Source of the DNA: Alphaproteobacteria bacterium
Lineage (GTDB): Bacteria > Pseudomonadota > Alphaproteobacteria > UBA2966 > CAIVPW01
Direction of reading: 5' to 3'
NCBI GenBank assembly: GCA_016869235.1
Contig: VGER01000001.1
Location: 54,596 to 118,595 of the forward strand
DNA: 64,000 nucleotides
Positions 42,801 to 60,800 of this stretch are shown one piece after another. Every line of letters begins with the position of its first letter. Position 1 is the stretch's first letter. Made by a program: the position numbers.

Positions 42801-45800
42801 GTGGCGGACAGAGTAATCAGGCAGACGTGAATGCCGCGCCGCGACCATTCGTCCAGAAGCTGGCAAGCAACACGTTGTGCGCCGCCCAGGCGGAGGTCTG
42901 GCAGAACGAAGGCGAGATCATGGGCGGAATGCGCCCGGCGCGGCTCGCCGTTCACCGCCCTGCCGGCGCCACTGTCGTTCACTGCGTCGCTTACGCTTCC
43001 GGCTTCTCGAACAGCCACCACGTGGTGCTGTCCATTGCAGCAGCACGCCGCCAGAGAAAGCCATAGCCGCGAAGCTTCAGCTGGGGAAACTCGTCCATCC
43101 AGAAGCCGCCGAAATCCCGCTTGAACAGAAGGTCTCCATGGCCTCGATACTCGATCGTCTCGGGCTTGGCCGCGAAATACTCGTTGGTCAGGATGTACCG
43201 GCGGGCTACGCGGTAGATTTCCTGGCAGGCCGCCTTGAGGTCATTTGGCGGGACGTGAATGAGCACCGTGGACGTGAACACGAGGTCGACTGCGCGGTCG
43301 CCAAGGGGAATGGCCTGCGCCGAACCATCGAAGGTGCGGCCGGGCTCCGTCACGTGGTCGGTAAGGAGCCTCTGGCGAGCGGTGGCGTTGGGCTCGAGGG
43401 CATAGAGGTCAGTGTCGACGATCTCCTTCAATGCCCGCAGGTTGAGGCCGACGTTCGCGCCGACCTCCAGGATCGATCGCGGCATCGCCCCGGCAAGGGG
43501 TCGCAGCATGTCTGCGAATGCGAGCGCCTTGCCGGCGACTTTCTCGCGAGTCACCTCGTTACGGCCGATGTACTCGTTGCCGAATGCGCCGGTCCACGCG
43601 GACAGCTGTTTGTTCATGTTCCGTCCTATCCGGCCGTCCCAAATGGGAGCCTTCAATGCCGCCACCGCCAGCCGCGATCAAGGGAAATCGCCCGCAAAGC
43701 AATGGCCAGGCACGAGTTGCCCGTAGCCGCGGGCGCGACGGTGCGCTACAAGCAAGGCGTCGGGCCGTTCGCGGTTCACCCGCAGTGCGGCAGCGTGGGC
43801 GCAAGTCGACCCAGGGCGCGCGCCACTTCCCCTGAGCCTCACCAATTTTGACGCCGCCGGTTTGCGCGGTCACCTCGCCGACCTGGGCGTCGGCCGTGGC
43901 ATGCACTTAGCCGTGCATTCGCGGCTTCTTACCTTCGGCCGTGTTGCGGGCGGCGTGGCGACCGTCTTCGACGTGCTGAAGGATGCGGTCGGCGAGAGCG
44001 GAACCCTGGTTTTTCCCACTTACACGACACGCCTTGGTCCGGACGAAGCGTTCGACCCGATGACCACGCCGTCACAAATGATGGGTGCGCTGCCCGAGTA
44101 CGCGCGGCGACAACCCGGTGTGGGGCGTAGCAGCTGCCCGATGCACAGCCACGCGGCGGTGGGTGCGAGGGCGCGCGTGGTCCTTGAGGCAGACGAGACT
44201 GTGTCGCTGGGCGCCGGTTCGTCGTTCGAGGCAATGTCCGGGGCCGGGTTTCAGGTGCTGCTGCTGGGTTGCTCATTTCAGGAGGGCGCCACCTTTGTCC
44301 ATCATGTCGAAGCGCTGGTTGGCGTGCCCTATCGCAGGTGGCTCGCGTTGCCGCGCAAGGTACGTGGTGGTGACGGTACGGTCCGCGACCTGACCTTGCG
44401 CTACTACGGCCGCAACGATGATGCGCCGGCCAATGACTTCACGCCGGTCGAGCGGCGTGCGGAGGCGGAGGGAGGGGCACGGCGCGTGGCAGTCAACGCC
44501 CGATCCTCCTTCCTGTTCGCGTGTACCTCCGTCGAACGTCTGGTGCGATCGATGCTGGCAATTGACTCCTTTGCGTTGACCGAACGGGCACAGTGAATTT
44601 TGCTGATCCAGTCGAATTGCTGGCGCGCCGAGCGCAAGCATCGCCTGACCACATCGCAATCGAGGAACCTGGCCGGTCCACCTCATACGAGGAGGTGGTC
44701 GTACTCGCGGCACGCTTCGCCGCGGCGTTTCGCGCGCGCGCGGGTGGCCAGGCTCCGCGCGTGCTCATCAACCTGCCACAGTGCGCCGAAGCCTACGCGG
44801 CCATGTTCGGCGCGCTCATGGCAGGGGGCATCTACGCGCCCAACAACCTTTCTGCCCCGGCCATCAGGCAACGCGGAGTGCACGAGGCGTTCGAGCCCGA
44901 CGCGGTCGTTGCGGCAGAGGGCACGTTGGATGTCCTCGGTATCGGTCCCACGGATCGTCGGTGGGTGAGTCTCTCCGACCTGCCGGCGCCGCTGCCCCGG
45001 CGGGTGTGGGCCGCGGACGATCTCGCGTACGTGATGTTCACGTCCGGCTCCACTGGCGCGCCAAAAGGCGTGATGGTTGCGCGAGAGGGCCTAGCGCATT
45101 TCATCGACTGGGCCCTCTTGGCGATGGACGTGCGCCGTACGGATCGGTGGTCGCAGCACCCCAATCTCGGTTTCGACCTGAGCGTCCTGGACATCTATGG
45201 CGCGCTCTGCGGTGGTGCCACCCTCGTGCCCTTGTCGCGGCAGGGCGACCGCCTGACGCCGGCGGCGGCCATACGGCGCCACAAATTGACGATTTGGAAC
45301 TCCGTTCCCAGCGTCGTCGACCTGATGCTGCGAGCGCGCCAGGTGACGGCTCAGAATCTGGAGACACTGCGCCTGCTCACCTTCTGCGGAGAGCCGCTGC
45401 TGCCGGCCCACCTCGAGGCCATCTTCGCGGCGCGACCCGACGTCGTGGTGCACAACACCTATGGCCCGACCGAAGCGACCGTGTCGTGCACGTTGGTGCG
45501 ACTCACCGAGGCCAACTATCGCGACGCCTGCCGCGCCAGTGTTGCCCTGGGTGATCCCATTCCCGGTATGGATGTCTGGCTTGCGGGGGGCGAGTCGGAC
45601 AACGAAGGCGAAGTAATGATCTGCGGGCCGCAAGTCGCGCGCGGCTATTGGCGCGATCCACAACGCACTGCGGCTGCGTTCGGCGAAGCTCAGCGGGCTG
45701 GCAGGATCATGCCGACGTATCGCACAGGCGACCGCGCCGCGCGCAACGGGCGTCACCTCTTCTTTCTGGAGCGCGTCGACCGTCAGGTGAAGATCCTCGG

Positions 45801-57800: not shown

Positions 57801-60800
57801 CCTTCCAGGTGTACTTCGATTTCTCGGCATACTCGGACATGGCCATCGGGCTCGGGCTGCTGCTCGGCATTAGGCTGCCGCTCAACTTCTACTCACCCTA
57901 CAAGGCGCGCGGCATCATCGACTTCTGGCGGCGCTGGCACATGACGTTGTCCCGCTTTCTACGTGACTACCTCTACATCCCGTTGGGAGGAAATCGGCGC
58001 GGCAAGGCGCGGCAGTACGTCAACTTGATTGTCGTTATGCTACTTGGCGGACTCTGGCACGGTGCCAACTGGACGTTCGTCGTCTGGGGCGCGATGCATG
58101 GTGCCGCCCTCGCGATCAACCATGCCTGGCGCAACTTGGTCGCCGCGCCCACCCGCAACCGCGTCTCCGTACTGACGACTCTTGCGACCTCGTTGTTCAT
58201 CGTGGCGACCTGGGTGTTCTTCCGCGCCAACGACATGAGCTCTGCCATGGTCCTGTTGCGCGCGATGGCCGGTCTGGACGGCATAGTCATTCCCGAGTCC
58301 TATGCCGCGTACTTAGGCGGCGCCAGCGGCATCCTCGCCGGCTTCGGGGTGGGCTTTGGCGCATTACCAGCATACCGCGGCATTGCGGACGTTCTGGTGT
58401 TGCTAATTGCCGCGATTGTCTGCCTGCGCATGCCGAATTCGATCGAGATCGTCCGATATCGAGGCCCGAATGCCTTGAAGGAGGAAGGTCGGCCGCGGCG
58501 CGTGCGCGCGGTGCGCTGGGTTCCGAACGTGGCGTGGGCCGTCGCGACGTCCGTGGTGTTCGTGGCGTGCGCGCTGCGGATGTTTGAGACCGGCGAGTTC
58601 CTCTACTTCCAGTTCTGACACTCGTTCAGTCGCCTCAGGGGGAACGGCGGTGAGTCGGTATCGCAAGTACCTGCAGGTCCTCTTCGCGGTGCTCGCCGCA
58701 CTGCTCTTGCCGCTCCTGCCCAACCTCGTGTTCATGCGCAACATCGGCGAGTTGACCGACGAGCAGCGCATCGCCGCCCTTCAGCAGGATCAAGGCGGAC
58801 TGTATGGGACGGCGACGACGTACGATGTTCTTCGTTACAAGAAGGCATTGATGGCATTGCGAGAGCCGGAGGTCGTTGCGCTCGGCTCGTCGCGCGTGAT
58901 GCAGTTCCGCCAGGAATTCTTCCGCGTCCCGTTCGCCAATCTGGGGGGCACAGTCAGCGACACGCAGCTGTTGCGCCGGCTTGCCGAGTCGATTGCGGAG
59001 ACTCCTTCCGTGAAGGTGGTCATCCTCGGGTTTGACTTCTGGTGGACGAACCGAGAGCTGAATGAGCGCAAGGAACGCAATGTTGTTCTGCGTGAGGACT
59101 ACCTCTCGGGCAAGATCGAGCTTGGCTTCGTGCCCTTGCGCTGGCTCGCCGACGGGCGCATCTCGTCAAATTTCTATCGCCACTCACTTGCGCAGGGGTT
59201 TCCCGCACGAATCGACGGCATTCCTGCATTTGGCGCCAACGCAGCGGCACGCGGGAATGGGTTCGCGCCCGATGGCTCCTATATGTACAACGGCGTGGTC
59301 TACGGACTGGAGAAATCGGCGGATGCCGGATTCGCCGAGATTCGAGACCGGATCGTCCGGTCCGTGGACAACTTCGGCCAGTTCGCTCACCTGGACCATG
59401 CGGCGCTTCGCGAGGCGGCCGCGGCGATCGATATCATGCAAGCCGCCGGAAAGCGTGTCGTGGTATTTGCGCCGCCGCTGGCGACCGCGATCCTTAACGA
59501 GATCGAGCGACGGCGCGATAGTTACCTCTATTTGGACGAGTTCTTGCGGGCGCTGCCGCAACTTGGGGCCGATGCGTGGCACAGCTTCCACGATCCACGA
59601 CAGTTCGATTCAAGCGATTGCGAATTCGTAGATGGCATTCACGGAGGGGATGTGACCTACGCGCGCATCGTTCTGCGTATGGCGGAAGACCCCGGCTTGG
59701 CGAGGGCTGTTGATCGTGATGCGCTTGGTGAAGTGGTTCGCTCCAGCGCAGGCCGGGCGAGTGGCGGCCTGGCGGCCGCGCTGAGTACGCGCAAGCAGGT
59801 GGATTTCTTGGAGCTCGGGTGCGTCCGTGACTGATGTTTGGTCCTTGTTGACTCTTCCCAAGAAGATCTTACGCGCGACCGCTTGGGCAGGGCTGCGCGC
59901 ACTGGTCCAAGCCGATGCCTATCGCGCTTTGTTGCCGATCTACGAGCGCGCGATTCGACAGATCGACAGCAATGGCCGCCTCCGGGAGCCCGCGCGCGGA
60001 CGCCGCGACGGTGAACTGACGGTCCTGGCCCTCAGTGCTGAGCAGTATCGCAAGGACCCACAGGTGTTGGCCGGAGTGGCGGGCATACGGGTGTTGGTCT
60101 TGCCGCAGCGCTGGCAGACGCGACTCTTGTTGCAGTTTGTCGAGCCGGGCCATCCCTGGGTGGACTATATGAATCCGCCCCCCGGATCGGCTCTCGAGCG
60201 GCAAAAGGCGCGTTACCGGAGATTCTTGCGAGGGTTTCTCCCGCTGCTGTACGAGCGCCACGGCGTCGATTGCGTCATTGGTCCGCATGTCCACTACTAT
60301 CCGGATGCCGACATCGGGGCGGTGTCGCAGACGTTGGGGCTTCCATTCGTGGTGTTGCACCGCGAAAACATGGTCCTTTCTTCCTTTCTGTGCGAAATGG
60401 TCTGGCATCGTCTGCGCCTGCTGAAGCCTTTTGAGGGCTCCCAGATCATCGTCCACAACGAGGCGATGCGCGAAGTCATGATCGGGGGCGGATTCGTAGA
60501 CGAGAAGCGGGTCAGCGCCCTAGGTTGCGTGCGCATGGATGAGTTCGTACGAAGCTGCGCTCGCGCGGAGCCGCCCCGTAATGCCCGCAAGCGAATCCTA
60601 TTCTTCCCATTCTACACAGGGTGGACGTTTCCGGAGCCTGTGCGACCGTTCTTTAATGCCGCGCATGCGACTCTGGTTCGCTATGCCATGTTGCGGCCTG
60701 ACGTCGACGTACACATCAAGCCAAAAGCCAAATTCGAGGCCGCCTGGCGCAAGGACTTTGACCGGGCCCTTAACGAGTCGGGGCTGCGAATCGACGCACT

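What the first reader, a model, noticed from the sequence alone, without database searches (positions are those of the whole stretch)
44593..59834. Split Dlt-like acyl/aminoacylation system (DltA/DltC-like and MBOAT/DltD-like) in an alphaproteobacterial capsule locus
A ~500-aa stand-alone adenylation enzyme carrying the A3, A5 and A7/A8 cores is TGATG-coupled to an 88-aa carrier protein with an LDSFGF phosphopantetheine site. About 11 kb downstream in the same operon are an MBOAT O-acyltransferase and a membrane-anchored DltD/AlgJ-like protein. Together these are the four functions of the Gram-positive dlt pathway, which adenylates, loads onto the carrier, passes through the MBOAT and esterifies D-alanine onto a cell-surface polymer. 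An AAC(3)-type N-acyltransferase and an AsnB-like amidotransferase sit next to the adenylation enzyme. The amino or hydroxy acid may therefore instead be N-linked to an amino sugar, with the MBOAT pair doing ordinary O-acetylation. Either way, this is an unusual modification of a Gram-negative capsule or exopolysaccharide.
Basis: inference. Interest (0 to 1): 0.7.

Follow-up and report, generated by a model that had tools for sequence, protein, structure and literature searches.

The report
Amino-acid tagging module for a capsule sugar
The DltA/DltC-like enzyme pair most likely works with the neighbouring AAC(3)-type acyltransferase to attach a small amino acid to a sialic-acid-like capsule sugar, while the distant MBOAT pair is an ordinary, independent O-acetylation system and not the other half of a Dlt pathway.

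Summary
One detail is wrong: the gene after the carrier is a sulfotransferase, and the AsnB-like gene lies 3.7 kb upstream on the other strand.

The "split Dlt" reading fails three tests.
1. The adenylation enzyme belongs to a large family with an invariant pocket code, DLLNTCTVSK. In 10 of 11 genomic contexts its immediate neighbour is the AAC(3)-like gene. DUF4910 is present in 9 of 11. These contexts are nonulosonic-acid, capsule or flagellin/Maf loci. An MBOAT is nearby in only 2 of 11.
2. The MBOAT ends in FLYFQF, the tyrosine "acyl-shuttle" motif fused as in the acetyl-CoA-using PatA/AlgI class. Real dlt operons fetched here carry the motif on a separate DltX microprotein. The window has no such microprotein.
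3. The MBOAT and its SGNH partner recur elsewhere without any adenylation or carrier gene.

Best explanation (confidence about 0.6): a DltA/DltC-like pair loads a small amino acid. The pocket matches genuine DltA at 6 of 10 positions, including the Cys. The FrbF/AAC(3)-fold enzyme then transfers the amino acid to an amino group of the sugar made by the adjacent PseB–NeuB cassette. The MBOAT pair O-acetylates independently. The module appears uncharacterised. I rate it a new variant of a known kind, of moderate interest.

The parts
43862..44596 (+). AAC(3)/FrbF-fold N-acyltransferase (244 aa). It is the proposed transferase that moves the aminoacyl group from the carrier to a sugar amine. The conserved H-x-x-E lies at res 147-151 (nt 44300-44314).
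   Evidence: PF02522 2.2e-39. All AAC(3) resistance models score far below their cut-offs (88.7 vs 270). The best solved relative is FrbF 3sma at 9.5e-22. Its stop overlaps the start of the adenylation gene. It is adjacent to the adenylation gene in 10 of 11 family contexts.
44593..46104 (+). Stand-alone amino-acid adenylation enzyme (503 aa), a carrier-protein ligase. Its pocket code is D195 L196 L199 N236 T263 C265 T289 V297 S298 K476.
   Evidence: TIGR01733 3.2e-88. DltA models score 231-237 bits, below their cut-offs. The code positions are invariant or nearly invariant (at least 90%; N236 is the consensus residue) across 23 family members. Genuine DltA has DLM[VT][LQM]CTVAK.
46104..46370 (+). 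88-aa DltC-like carrier protein. The phosphopantetheine site is Ser44 in LDSFGF (nt 46233-46235).
   Evidence: PP-binding 4.2e-5. The only NCBIfam hits are DltC models, at 7e-6 and below cut-off. It shares the DSFG motif with a genuine Bacillus DltC. Translational coupling is by TGATG.
46372..47490 (+). Sulfotransferase. It occupies the variable slot after the carrier gene. Other loci have a GNAT, a formyltransferase or a methyltransferase there.
   Evidence: PF13469 1.2e-13 and PF00685 1.3e-9. The GTG start lies 1 nt after the carrier stop. Slot variation is seen.
47498..48526 (+). PseB, the inverting UDP-GlcNAc 4,6-dehydratase. It is the first step of the nonulosonic-acid cassette.
   Evidence: TIGR03589 scores 485.6 bits against a cut-off of 407.75.
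48477..49874 (+). DUF4910/DUF2172/HTH_47 metallopeptidase-like protein. It is a conserved partner of the AAC(3)-adenylation-carrier trio. Its role is unknown; a deacylase or transacylase function is a guess.
   Evidence: PF16254 1.2e-85. It is present in 9 of 11 family contexts. In the minimal flagellar loci L084 and L137 it sits directly upstream of the AAC(3)-like gene. Das et al. 2014 (PMC4000134) linked this family to modified-sugar clusters.
49871..53207 (+). Rest of the nonulosonic-acid cassette: RmlD-like reductase (49871-50707), NeuB-family synthase (50704-51771), small GT2 (51772-52434) and CTP_transf_3 cytidylyltransferase (52470-53207).
   Evidence: The same block is conserved in L001, L085 and L134 at 40-71% identity.
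53255..57067 (+). MsbA/PglK-like ABC exporter (53255-54970) and two GFO/IDH/MocA oxidoreductases (55083-56078 and 56063-57067).
57089..58618 (+). PatA/AlgI-type MBOAT (509 aa). It has the catalytic His324 (nt 58058-58060), two extra C-terminal hydrophobic helices (res 423-455 and 477-499), and a fused acyl-shuttle motif FLYFQF (res 504-509, Tyr506, nt 58598-58615).
   Evidence: PF03062 9e-30. The DltB equivalog model scores 154 against a cut-off of 375. The core at res 117-382 aligns to DltB structures. For the motif and helices. The motif's meaning is taken from PMC12148441.
58650..59834 (+). It has an N-terminal TM helix, the invariant G79-S80-S81 (nt 58884-58892) and D328-x-x-H331 (nt 59631-59642).

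Best explanation
Two separate modification systems share one long capsule operon.

(A) N-aminoacylation module, 43862-46370, probably together with DUF4910 at 48477-49874.
- The stand-alone adenylation enzyme activates a small alpha-amino acid with ATP. It loads it as a thioester on Ser44-phosphopantetheine of the 88-aa DltC-like carrier. This chemistry follows from the family's conserved motifs.
- The translationally coupled AAC(3)/FrbF-fold enzyme then uses that aminoacyl-S-carrier in place of acetyl-CoA. It acylates an amino group of the nonulosonic acid, or of its nucleotide-linked precursor, made by the adjacent PseB-RmlD-NeuB-GT2-cytidylyltransferase cassette. This step is inferred from gene linkage.
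- DUF4910 assists in an unknown way. One possibility is that it frees the acceptor amine by de-N-acetylation.
- The gene in the slot after the carrier, here a sulfotransferase, may cap the product.

(B) O-acylation module, 57089-59834.
- This is a PatA/AlgI-type MBOAT. It takes an acyl group, most likely acetyl from acetyl-CoA, onto Tyr506 of its own C-terminal FLYFQF motif.
- It passes the acyl group to Ser80 of the membrane-anchored SGNH partner, which esterifies the exported polymer. The mechanism is taken from the PatA/PatB and Dlt work in PMC12148441.

The two modules are not functionally coupled.
For: Linkage of the adenylation family
- The family is large and shows 48-81% identity among the 120 best hits. 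Its 10-residue pocket code is conserved across the 23 aligned members.
- I examined 11 contexts: the window, L001, L002, L005, L084, L085, L134, L135, L137 and two JGI contigs without DNA. The AAC(3)-like gene is the immediate upstream neighbour in 10, usually with overlapping or abutting coding regions. DUF4910 is present in 9. A NeuB/PseB-type sugar cassette is present in 7.
- L084 (Kiloniellales) and L137 (Paramagnetospirillum marisnigri) reduce the system to DUF4910-AAC(3)-adenylation(-carrier), next to Maf. L084 also carries flagellin genes.

Cross-tabulation on loci with DNA
- Code DLL..CTVSK: the AAC(3)-like gene is adjacent in 7 of 8 loci, and an MBOAT lies within 3 kb in 0 of 8.
- DltA-type code ...CTVAK: an MBOAT lies within 3 kb in 21 of 24 loci, and an AAC(3)-like gene in 0 of 24.

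Substrate class
- The alpha-amino-binding Asp (FDLS) and the A10 Lys are present.
- The code matches genuine DltA at 6 of 10 positions, including the Cys of FCGE.
- The carrier has the DltC-type DSFG motif.

AAC(3)-like enzyme
- The H-x-x-E that aligns with FrbF's HLAE is invariant in the subfamily.
- It fails every resistance-enzyme model.

MBOAT pair
- The MBOAT carries a fused FLYFQF motif and two extra C-terminal helices. No DltX-like ORF is found in 40-64 kb.
- It is 42% identical to an AlgI-type MBOAT that sits in an ALGX-ALGX-MBOAT-AlgF operon (L033).
- Homologous MBOAT+partner pairs occur in polysaccharide loci with no adenylation or carrier gene within 10 kb.
Against: - No biochemistry exists for any member of this module. 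An Antibiotic_NAT-fold enzyme that uses a carrier-protein thioester has no precedent that I could find.
- The window has no aminotransferase, so the acceptor amine is unexplained. Related loci have an Aminotran_3 or DegT gene beside the AAC(3)-like gene.
- One family member (L135) and the sister clade (L004, and the Mesorhizobium plasmid L138) have adenylation-carrier-GNAT without AAC(3). The transferase could therefore be a GNAT, and the window has a GNAT at 62720-63271.
- L085 also has an MBOAT 4.3 kb from the carrier, so co-occurrence is not zero.
- The context sample is small (11 loci) and was chosen for long contigs.
Confidence: 0.6

Rival explanations
1. Split Dlt-like pathway. The aminoacyl-S-carrier docks on the MBOAT. 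The MBOAT passes the amino acid across the membrane to the SGNH protein, which esterifies it onto the capsule polymer.
For: - All four functions lie on one strand with no detectable terminator between genes.
- The carrier and the adenylation pocket are DltC- and DltA-like.
- The MBOAT core aligns to DltB structures at 1e-31.
- L085 also carries both gene sets.
Against: - The MBOAT has the fused FXYXXF motif and extra helices of the acyl-CoA class. There is no DltX. All six genuine dlt loci checked here have a DltX ending in the motif (FIYNEF, FVYQGF and similar), and the DltBs examined lack it.
- The DltB equivalog model scores 154 against a cut-off of 375.
- The window's MBOAT is closer to that of L136, which has no adenylation or carrier gene (48%), than to that of L085 (44%).
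- The adenylation/carrier family lacks an MBOAT in 9 of 11 contexts. MBOAT+partner pairs occur without adenylation/carrier genes in 2 of 2 contexts.
- Ten genes and 10.7 kb separate the two halves.
- The partner is not a DltD family member by profile comparison (18% probability).
Confidence: 0.08
2. The adenylation/carrier pair feeds a different transferase, either a GNAT (62720-63271) or DUF4910 acting as a transacylase. The AAC(3)-like enzyme is then a plain acetyl-CoA-dependent N-acetyltransferase of the same sugar pathway, standing in for PseH.
For: - Adenylation-carrier-GNAT trios without AAC(3) exist: L135, the Mesorhizobium plasmid L138 and L004.
- A GNAT follows the carrier in L001, L085 and the P0007 context.
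- Das et al. proposed a transacylation role for DUF4910.
- All characterised Antibiotic_NAT enzymes use acetyl-CoA (and my own knowledge).
Against: - In the window, and in the minimal loci L084 and L137, no GNAT lies beside the carrier, whereas the AAC(3)-like gene always does.
- The AAC(3)-like and adenylation genes overlap in the window.
- The window's GNAT lies 16 kb downstream.
- According to PMC4000134, DUF4910 lacks the catalytic residues of its peptidase clan.
Confidence: 0.2
3. The adenylation/carrier pair is not glycan-related. It would make a small NRPS-like metabolite or an aminoacyl lipid, and sits in the locus by chance.
For: - Stand-alone adenylation/carrier pairs are common in secondary metabolism.
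- The best overall PDB scores include NRPS modules.
Against: - There is no condensation, thioesterase or reductase domain anywhere in the operon.
- The family is embedded in sugar or flagellin-glycosylation loci in all 11 contexts.
Confidence: 0.04

Closest known systems
Dlt pathway (DltX-DltA-DltB-DltC-DltD) for D-alanylation of teichoic acids
   Same: - A stand-alone adenylation enzyme and a small dedicated carrier with a DSFG serine motif.
- The pocket code shares 6 of 10 positions with genuine DltA, including the Cys of FCGE.
- An MBOAT and an anchored SGNH protein are present in the same operon.
   Different: - There is no DltX microprotein. The MBOAT has the shuttle motif fused to it.
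- All equivalog models are missed by wide margins.
- The conserved partner of the adenylation/carrier pair is a cytoplasmic AAC(3)-fold enzyme, not the MBOAT.
- The predicted linkage is an amide on a sugar amine, made in the cytoplasm. It is not an ester made outside the membrane.
PatA/PatB, AlgI/AlgJ and WssH/WssI: MBOAT-SGNH O-acetyltransferases that use acetyl-CoA (PMC12148441)
   Same: - A roughly 500-aa MBOAT with a catalytic His, two extra C-terminal helices and a terminal FXYXXF motif.
- An adjacent SGNH partner with a Ser/Asp/His triad.
- 42% identity to an AlgI-type MBOAT.
   Different: - The partner belongs to an unannotated family: 36 database relatives, and only one carries a precomputed family hit, to DUF1574.
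- Its triad order is Ser...DxxH, as in DltD and PatB, and it gives no hit to the AlgX/AlgJ Pfam model.
- The target polymer is unknown.
FrbF, the Antibiotic_NAT-fold N-acetyltransferase of FR-900098 biosynthesis (PDB 3sma)
   Same: - It is the best solved relative (9.5e-22), and the H-x-x-E is aligned.
- It is a biosynthetic member of the fold and has no aminoglycoside activity (PMC8956665).
- From my own knowledge, FrbF acts on a CMP-linked amine. That parallels a CMP-activated sugar acceptor here.
   Different: FrbF uses acetyl-CoA. Here the proposed donor is an aminoacyl-S-carrier protein, which is inferred and not shown.
N-aminoacyl nonulosonic acids such as Leg5Ac7AcAla of Vibrio vulnificus CMCP6 (cited in PMC7371886)
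   Same: This is a chemically established example of an alanyl group amide-linked to a nonulosonic-acid amine. It is the kind of product predicted here.
   Different: - No Vibrio protein appears among the listed relatives of this adenylation family.
- The paper on that sugar is not held in the library.
- No genetic link between that structure and this module could be made.
DUF4910 (CA_C2195) neighbourhoods described by Das et al. 2014 (PMC4000134)
   Same: DUF4910 is linked to NeuB (SpsE), SpsF, Maf, 'aminosugar N-acetyltransferase' and an acyl carrier protein in a clostridial cluster. The authors proposed that it takes part in acylating an amino sugar.
   Different: - That cluster has an ATP-grasp ligase rather than a DltA-like adenylation enzyme.
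- There was no experimental follow-up.
- The proteobacterial AAC(3)-DltA-like-DltC-like trio was not described.
Carrier-protein-dependent N-acylation of amino sugars: butirosin BtrI/BtrJ/BtrH, and Vibrio cholerae O1 perosamine tetronylation by RfbK-N (my own knowledge, not checked here)
   Same: The logic is the same: an acid is activated, carried on a dedicated small carrier, and transferred to a sugar amine.
   Different: The activating enzymes and transferase folds differ. None of these systems uses an Antibiotic_NAT-fold transferase.

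Membership tests
Dlt pathway | DltA: passes the D-alanine--D-alanyl carrier protein ligase equivalog models | tested here: not met
   TIGR01734 scores 230.9 bits against a cut-off of 559.85. NF003417 scores 237.1 against 476. 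Identity to genuine DltAs is 27-30%.
Dlt pathway | DltA substrate pocket specific for D-Ala | tested here: inconclusive
   The window's code is DLLNTCTVSK. Five genuine DltAs have DLM[VT][LQM]CTVAK. Six of 10 positions are identical, including the Cys. Four positions are more polar. The substrate cannot be read from sequence alone.
Dlt pathway | DltC: a small carrier with the DltC-type serine motif | tested here: inconclusive
   The DSFG motif is shared with a genuine DltC. NF003464 scores only 25.9 bits against a cut-off of 68.
Dlt pathway | DltX microprotein ending in FXYXXF, encoded beside dltA; DltB itself lacks the motif | tested here: not met
   In window 40-64 kb the only ORF ending in the motif is the MBOAT itself. 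Six genuine dlt loci each have a DltX ORF ending in the motif (FIYNEF, FVYQGF, FQYQQF and similar) upstream of dltA. The DltBs examined lack it.
Dlt pathway | DltB equivalog | tested here: not met
   TIGR04091 scores 154.3 bits against a cut-off of 375. Identity to DltBs is 26-31% over 230-380 aa (mostly under 300), against 42-48% over the full length to non-Dlt MBOATs.
Dlt pathway | DltD family membership of the SGNH partner | tested here: not met
Dlt pathway | Adenylation/carrier genes and MBOAT/SGNH genes are contiguous and co-inherited | tested here: not met
   They are 10.7 kb and ten genes apart. An MBOAT lies near the adenylation family in 2 of 11 contexts. For DltA-type enzymes the figure is 21 of 24.
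MBOAT-SGNH O-acyltransferase of the PatA/AlgI (acyl-CoA) class | MBOAT with a conserved catalytic His | tested here: met
   His324 in GLWHGANW aligns with the WHG of the DltB structures.
MBOAT-SGNH O-acyltransferase of the PatA/AlgI (acyl-CoA) class | C-terminal FXYXXF shuttle motif fused to the MBOAT on two extra TM helices | tested here: met
   The protein ends in FLYFQF (res 504-509). Hydrophobic segments lie at 423-455 and 477-499, beyond the DltB-aligned core. The criterion comes from PMC12148441.
MBOAT-SGNH O-acyltransferase of the PatA/AlgI (acyl-CoA) class | Adjacent SGNH-fold partner with a Ser/Asp/His triad | tested here: met
   The AF2 model has pLDDT 92.8 and an SGNH fold. G79-S80-S81, D328 and H331 are invariant in 32 sequences. 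The gene starts 32 nt after the MBOAT stop.
MBOAT-SGNH O-acyltransferase of the PatA/AlgI (acyl-CoA) class | Acetyl-CoA is the acyl donor | not testable with these tools
   This needs a labelling assay with [14C]acetyl-CoA compared against the loaded carrier.
Antibiotic_NAT (AAC(3)) fold | Pfam PF02522 above the gathering score | tested here: met
   135.8 bits against a cut-off of 25, covering positions 2-231 of the 232-position model.
Antibiotic_NAT (AAC(3)) fold | Aminoglycoside-resistance AAC(3) equivalog | tested here: not met
   The best score is NF033082 at 88.7 bits against a cut-off of 270. The closest structure is the biosynthetic enzyme FrbF.
Antibiotic_NAT (AAC(3)) fold | Acetyl-CoA as donor | not testable with these tools
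   Gene linkage suggests an aminoacyl-S-carrier donor instead. This needs an enzyme assay.
Canonical pseudaminic acid pathway (PseB, C, H, G, I, F) | PseB | tested here: met
   TIGR03589 scores 485.6 against a cut-off of 407.75.
Canonical pseudaminic acid pathway (PseB, C, H, G, I, F) | PseC aminotransferase, PseH and a PseI equivalog | tested here: not met
   No aminotransferase domain was found in any long ORF of the window. PseI scores 216.5 against 340, and NeuB 246.3 against 399.65. PseH scores 33.6 against 93.1. An RmlD-like reductase sits where PseC would act.

The most novel reading that the evidence does not exclude
The DltC-like carrier serves two masters. It donates its amino acid to the cytoplasmic AAC(3)-fold enzyme. 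It also donates to the AlgI/PatA-type MBOAT, whose own fused Tyr506 then shuttles the amino acid to the SGNH partner. The capsule of a Gram-negative bacterium would then carry an ester-linked amino acid made by a hybrid of Dlt chemistry and PatA architecture, without DltX.
Probability: 0.07. Interest if true: 0.8.

Novelty: new variant of a known kind. Interest (0 to 1): 0.5.

Why it matters
Nonulosonic acids on capsules, LPS and flagellins carry many different N-acyl groups, and these shape immune recognition and phage and lectin binding. Aminoacyl variants such as Leg5Ac7AcAla are known chemically. I found no description of the enzymes that install them.

The DUF4910 + AAC(3)-fold + DltA-like + DltC-like cassette is widespread. 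Thousands of database relatives exist, and the listed relatives that carry a taxon name come mostly from Alphaproteobacteria, plus Desulfoluna, Colwellia and Magnetococcales. It offers a concrete, testable candidate for this step. If confirmed, it would do three things:
- add a new donor class, a carrier-protein thioester, to a fold known almost only for antibiotic resistance;
- give DUF4910 a working context;
- show Dlt-type activation chemistry redeployed for cytoplasmic amide formation.

The negative result is useful too. The terminal FXYXXF motif, set against a separate DltX, is a quick sequence test. It separates real Dlt systems from ordinary MBOAT O-acetylation systems that merely sit near an adenylation gene.

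Tried and rejected
- Genome-collection scan with the family alignment. It returned mostly distant DltA/NRPS relatives. These were useful as Dlt controls but gave only one more family context (L005).
- Metagenome scan with the single protein. The tool picked idiosyncratic peptides and returned only relatives of at most 35% identity, apart from one 59-residue fragment.
- Look-up of the window's own protein: not on record, so the source organism is not identified.
- Search for a link to Vibrio vulnificus and Leg5Ac7AcAla. No Vibrio protein appears among the listed relatives of the window enzyme or of the Colwellia enzyme. McDonald et al. 2018 is not held. Bae et al. 2011 on FrbF is not held.
- Literature searches pairing 'nonulosonic acid' with 'aminoglycoside 3-N-acetyltransferase', and flagellin glycosylation with DltA. 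Neither found a description of this module.
- Treating the AAC(3)-like gene as a resistance gene: rejected on model scores and on its operon context.
- Reading the adenylation enzyme as a fatty- or aryl-acid ligase: rejected. The FD(L)S Asp and the amino-acid-adenylation model dominate, and acyl-CoA ligase models score at most about 150 bits.
- Promoter/terminator scan: it gave no usable operon boundaries.

Full report
WHAT IS THERE

The interval sits inside a run of 19 co-directional genes (43862-63271, + strand). Gaps are at most 112 bp, and no terminator-like site lies between genes. In order, the genes are:
- an Antibiotic_NAT/AAC(3)-fold protein, 43862-44596;
- a 503-aa stand-alone adenylation enzyme, 44593-46104;
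- an 88-aa carrier, 46104-46370;
- a sulfotransferase, 46372-47490;
- PseB, 47498-48526 (above the equivalog cut-off);
- a DUF4910/DUF2172/HTH_47 peptidase-like protein, 48477-49874;
- an RmlD-like reductase, a NeuB-family synthase, a small GT2 and a CTP_transf_3 cytidylyltransferase, 49871-53207;
- an MsbA/PglK-like ABC exporter and two GFO oxidoreductases, 53255-57067;
- an MBOAT, 57089-58618;
- a protein with no family hit, 58584/58650-59834;
- two putative sugar-polymer enzymes and a GNAT.

Upstream lie a Wza-GfcC fusion, YjbH, the PAPS-synthesis genes CysD and CysNC, glycosyltransferases, a carbamoyltransferase and an AsnB-like amidotransferase. The setting is therefore a capsule/EPS locus.

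The AAC(3)-like stop overlaps the GTG start of the adenylation gene, and the adenylation stop overlaps the carrier ATG as TGATG. Two details are off. The AsnB-like gene is 3.7 kb away on the other strand. The gene next to the carrier is a sulfotransferase.

THE ADENYLATION ENZYME AND THE CARRIER

The enzyme scores best against the amino-acid adenylation domain model (TIGR01733, 296 bits). It falls well below the DltA equivalog cut-offs.

I used the conserved motifs to place the ten pocket positions. The position mapping is from my own knowledge of the GrsA-PheA numbering, applied to a MAFFT alignment. The code is DLLNTCTVSK. Five genuine DltAs taken from real dlt operons fetched here (Pediococcus, Enterococcus, Listeria and two Bacillus) read DLM[VT][LQM]CTVAK. 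Six of ten positions agree:
- the alpha-amino-binding Asp;
- the Cys of FCGE;
- the Thr, the Val and the A10 Lys.

The four differing positions are more polar in the window enzyme. This points to a small alpha-amino acid: Ala or D-Ala-like, or possibly Ser or Gly. It rules out neither. The code positions are invariant or nearly so across 23 aligned family members at 49-62% identity (N236 is the consensus residue rather than a listed near-invariant), so the whole family should activate the same substrate.

The carrier has the DSFG serine motif of a genuine DltC, and its only NCBIfam hits are DltC models, below cut-off. "DltA/DltC-like" is a fair functional description, but it is not orthology.

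WHAT THE PAIR IS LINKED TO

The family is large. There are 6244 hits at E<=1e-20 among the scored candidates, although that total also includes more distant adenylation enzymes. The 120 best hits are 48-81% identical.

I obtained 11 genomic contexts including the window.
- The AAC(3)-like gene is the immediate upstream neighbour of the adenylation gene in 10 of them.
- DUF4910 is in the cluster in 9.
- A NeuB/PseB-type nonulosonic-acid cassette is present in 7.
- An MBOAT lies within about 11 kb in 2: the window and L085.

Two loci show the minimal form. In a Kiloniellales contig (L084) the block DUF4910-AAC(3)-adenylation-carrier lies between flagellin genes, next to the flagellin nonulosonic-acid glycosyltransferase Maf. 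In Paramagnetospirillum marisnigri (L137), DUF4910-AAC(3)-adenylation abuts Maf.

A cross-tabulation over all loci with DNA makes the partition explicit.
- Enzymes with the DLL..CTVSK code have the AAC(3)-like gene adjacent in 7 of 8 loci, and no MBOAT within 3 kb.
- Enzymes with the DltA-type ...CTVAK code have an MBOAT within 3 kb in 21 of 24 loci, and never an AAC(3)-like gene.

A sister arrangement, adenylation-carrier-GNAT without AAC(3), occurs in L135, in Pinisolibacter (L004) and on Mesorhizobium plasmids. These too are polysaccharide loci without an MBOAT.

The conserved consumer of the loaded carrier is therefore a cytoplasmic N-acyltransferase, not a membrane MBOAT.

THE AAC(3)-LIKE PROTEIN

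It passes the Pfam model fully. It misses every resistance-enzyme model by a wide margin. Its closest solved relative is FrbF. FrbF is a biosynthetic member of the fold with no aminoglycoside activity. From my own knowledge, FrbF N-acetylates a CMP-linked amine. The H-x-x-E that aligns with FrbF's HLAE is invariant in the subfamily, which is consistent with N-acylation of an amine. That the donor is the aminoacyl-S-carrier rather than acetyl-CoA is an inference from gene linkage and translational coupling. It has not been shown.

THE MBOAT AND ITS PARTNER

The MBOAT core (res 117-382) aligns to DltB structures at about 1e-30, and the catalytic His324 is conserved. No PatA or AlgI chain appears among the PDB sequence matches, so this cannot discriminate between classes. 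Three other tests do.

First test: the shuttle motif. The work of Schultz et al., as summarised in PMC12148441, shows that Dlt systems carry the FXYXXF tyrosine shuttle motif on a separate microprotein, DltX. The acyl-CoA-using MBOATs (PatA, AlgI and relatives) have the motif fused to their own C-terminus on two extra helices.
- The window MBOAT ends in ...GEFLYFQF and has two extra hydrophobic segments, 423-455 and 477-499.
- In six genuine dlt loci fetched here, a 52-100-codon ORF ending in FIYNEF, FVYQGF or FQYQQF lies just upstream of dltA, or of dltB in Achromobacter. The DltBs examined there lack the motif.
- In the window, no ORF other than the MBOAT ends in the motif between 40 and 64 kb.

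Second test: sequence similarity. The MBOAT is 42% identical over its full length to an MBOAT in an ALGX-ALGX-MBOAT-AlgF operon (L033). It is 48% identical to one in Magnetovibrio (L136). It is only 26-31% identical to DltBs, over 230-380 residues.

Third test: the partner and its contexts.
- The partner belongs to an unannotated family of 36 database relatives. Only one of them carries a precomputed family hit, to DUF1574.
- G79-S80-S81 and D328-x-x-H331 are invariant. This mirrors the GSSE...DxxH layout of DltD.
- A profile comparison with DltD gives only 18% probability.
- In both contexts retrieved for partner homologues, the MBOAT+partner pair sits in a polysaccharide locus with no adenylation or carrier gene within 10 kb.

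The pair is best filed as a PatA/AlgI-class MBOAT-SGNH O-acyltransferase with a new partner subfamily. Acetyl-CoA is the most likely donor.

MECHANISM PROPOSED

Module A:
1. The adenylation enzyme forms the aminoacyl-AMP and thioesterifies Ser44-phosphopantetheine of the carrier. This follows from the family chemistry.
2. The AAC(3)/FrbF-fold enzyme transfers the aminoacyl group to an amine of the nonulosonic acid or its nucleotide-linked precursor. This is inferred.
3. DUF4910 and the gene in the slot after the carrier modify the acceptor or the product. This is speculative.

The slot after the carrier holds a GNAT, a formyltransferase, a methyltransferase or, in the window, a sulfotransferase in different loci. 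This looks like alternative capping of the new aminoacyl group.

Module B: the MBOAT auto-acylates Tyr506 from a cytoplasmic thioester. The SGNH partner then moves the acyl group to the exported polymer.

An unresolved point is the acceptor amine. The window cassette has PseB followed by an RmlD-like reductase and has no aminotransferase. Related loci carry an Aminotran_3 or DegT gene beside the AAC(3)-like gene. Two possibilities remain:
- the only nitrogen is the original GlcNAc-derived N5, which something, perhaps DUF4910, would have to free by de-N-acetylation;
- an aminotransferase is encoded elsewhere in the genome.

From memory, 5-amino-3,5,9-trideoxy-nonulosonic acids (fusaminic acid) exist. 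The name is confirmed; the structure is my recollection. They would fit a PseB-reductase-NeuB route.

NOVELTY AND VERDICT

Carrier-dependent N-acylation of amino sugars is an established idea, and alanyl-substituted legionaminic acid is chemically known. Das et al. 2014 had already tied DUF4910 to NeuB/SpsF/Maf clusters that contain an acyl carrier protein and "aminosugar N-acetyltransferases".

I found no description of the AAC(3)-fold + DltA-like + DltC-like trio, or of any Antibiotic_NAT enzyme using a carrier-protein donor. These searches cover open-access text only.

I therefore rate it a new variant of a known kind. It is of moderate interest and is directly testable in cultured organisms that carry the minimal cassette. 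The split-Dlt headline is not supported (about 8%).

Noticed in passing
window 46372-47490; compare L001 11806-12399, L084 11756-12490, L085 11807-12451, and the P0008 context: The gene directly after the carrier differs between loci. It is a GNAT, a formyltransferase, a methyltransferase or, in the window, a sulfotransferase. This looks like alternative capping of the transferred aminoacyl group, or of the sugar.
   Followed up: partly
window 47498-53207: The nonulosonic-acid cassette (PseB, RmlD-like, NeuB, GT2, CTP_transf_3) contains no aminotransferase. Its NeuB scores below both the NeuB and the PseI equivalog cut-offs. Related loci add an Aminotran_3 or DegT gene next to the AAC(3)-like gene. 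In Desulfoluna (L002) the Aminotran_3 is fused to the cytidylyltransferase. The sugar is probably not canonical pseudaminic acid.
   Followed up: partly
window 27356-30110 and 46372-47490: The PAPS-synthesis genes (CysD-like at 27356-28204 and a CysN/CysC fusion at 28173-30110) lie in the same locus as the sulfotransferase. This implies a sulfated polysaccharide. The closest related contexts (P0008 and L134) also carry a sulfotransferase and a carbamoyltransferase.
   Followed up: no
window 34815-37683: A carbamoyltransferase (34815-36650) is followed by a second SGNH/GDSL protein with a weak AlgX match (36526-37683). This may be a further, separate acylation or esterase activity in the locus.
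   Followed up: no
window 21453-27278: A 982-aa protein fuses Wza-type Poly_export/SLBB domains to GfcC N- and C-terminal domains. It is followed by a 947-aa YjbH protein, giving a group-4-capsule-like export set.
   Followed up: no
window 59827-62723: Two large proteins (461 and 504 aa) have only faint matches to 'surface carbohydrate biosynthesis' and Capsule_synth models. A homologue of the second (25% identity) sits in the related locus L134 beside DUF4910 and PseB. They are candidate transferases or polymerases for the nonulosonic acid.
   Followed up: no
L033 8321-15599 (Pseudacidovorax intermedius): An acyl-CoA-dehydrogenase-like gene, a carrier and a DltA-like adenylation gene (code DVYVVCTVAK) form one operon. 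It converges on an ALGX-ALGX-MBOAT-AlgF acetylation operon whose MBOAT also ends in FLYFQF. Here too an adenylation/carrier pair sits beside a fused-motif MBOAT without being part of the same operon.
   Followed up: partly
L138 11995-14385 (Mesorhizobium sp. 131-2-5 plasmid), L004 9902-11756, L135 10001-12381: A sister module of adenylation enzyme, carrier and GNAT, with no AAC(3), occurs in capsule/EPS loci. The adenylation enzymes of L138 and L004 are 44-46% identical to the window enzyme and that of L135 is 51%. The L004 pocket code is DITNNCTIAK.
   Followed up: partly
window 3542-5281 and 7023-8201: Housekeeping genes lie outside the polysaccharide locus: a MutY-like glycosylase, and a CcrM-type N6 DNA methylase with a RAMA domain. 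The polysaccharide locus starts at about 21 kb.
   Followed up: no
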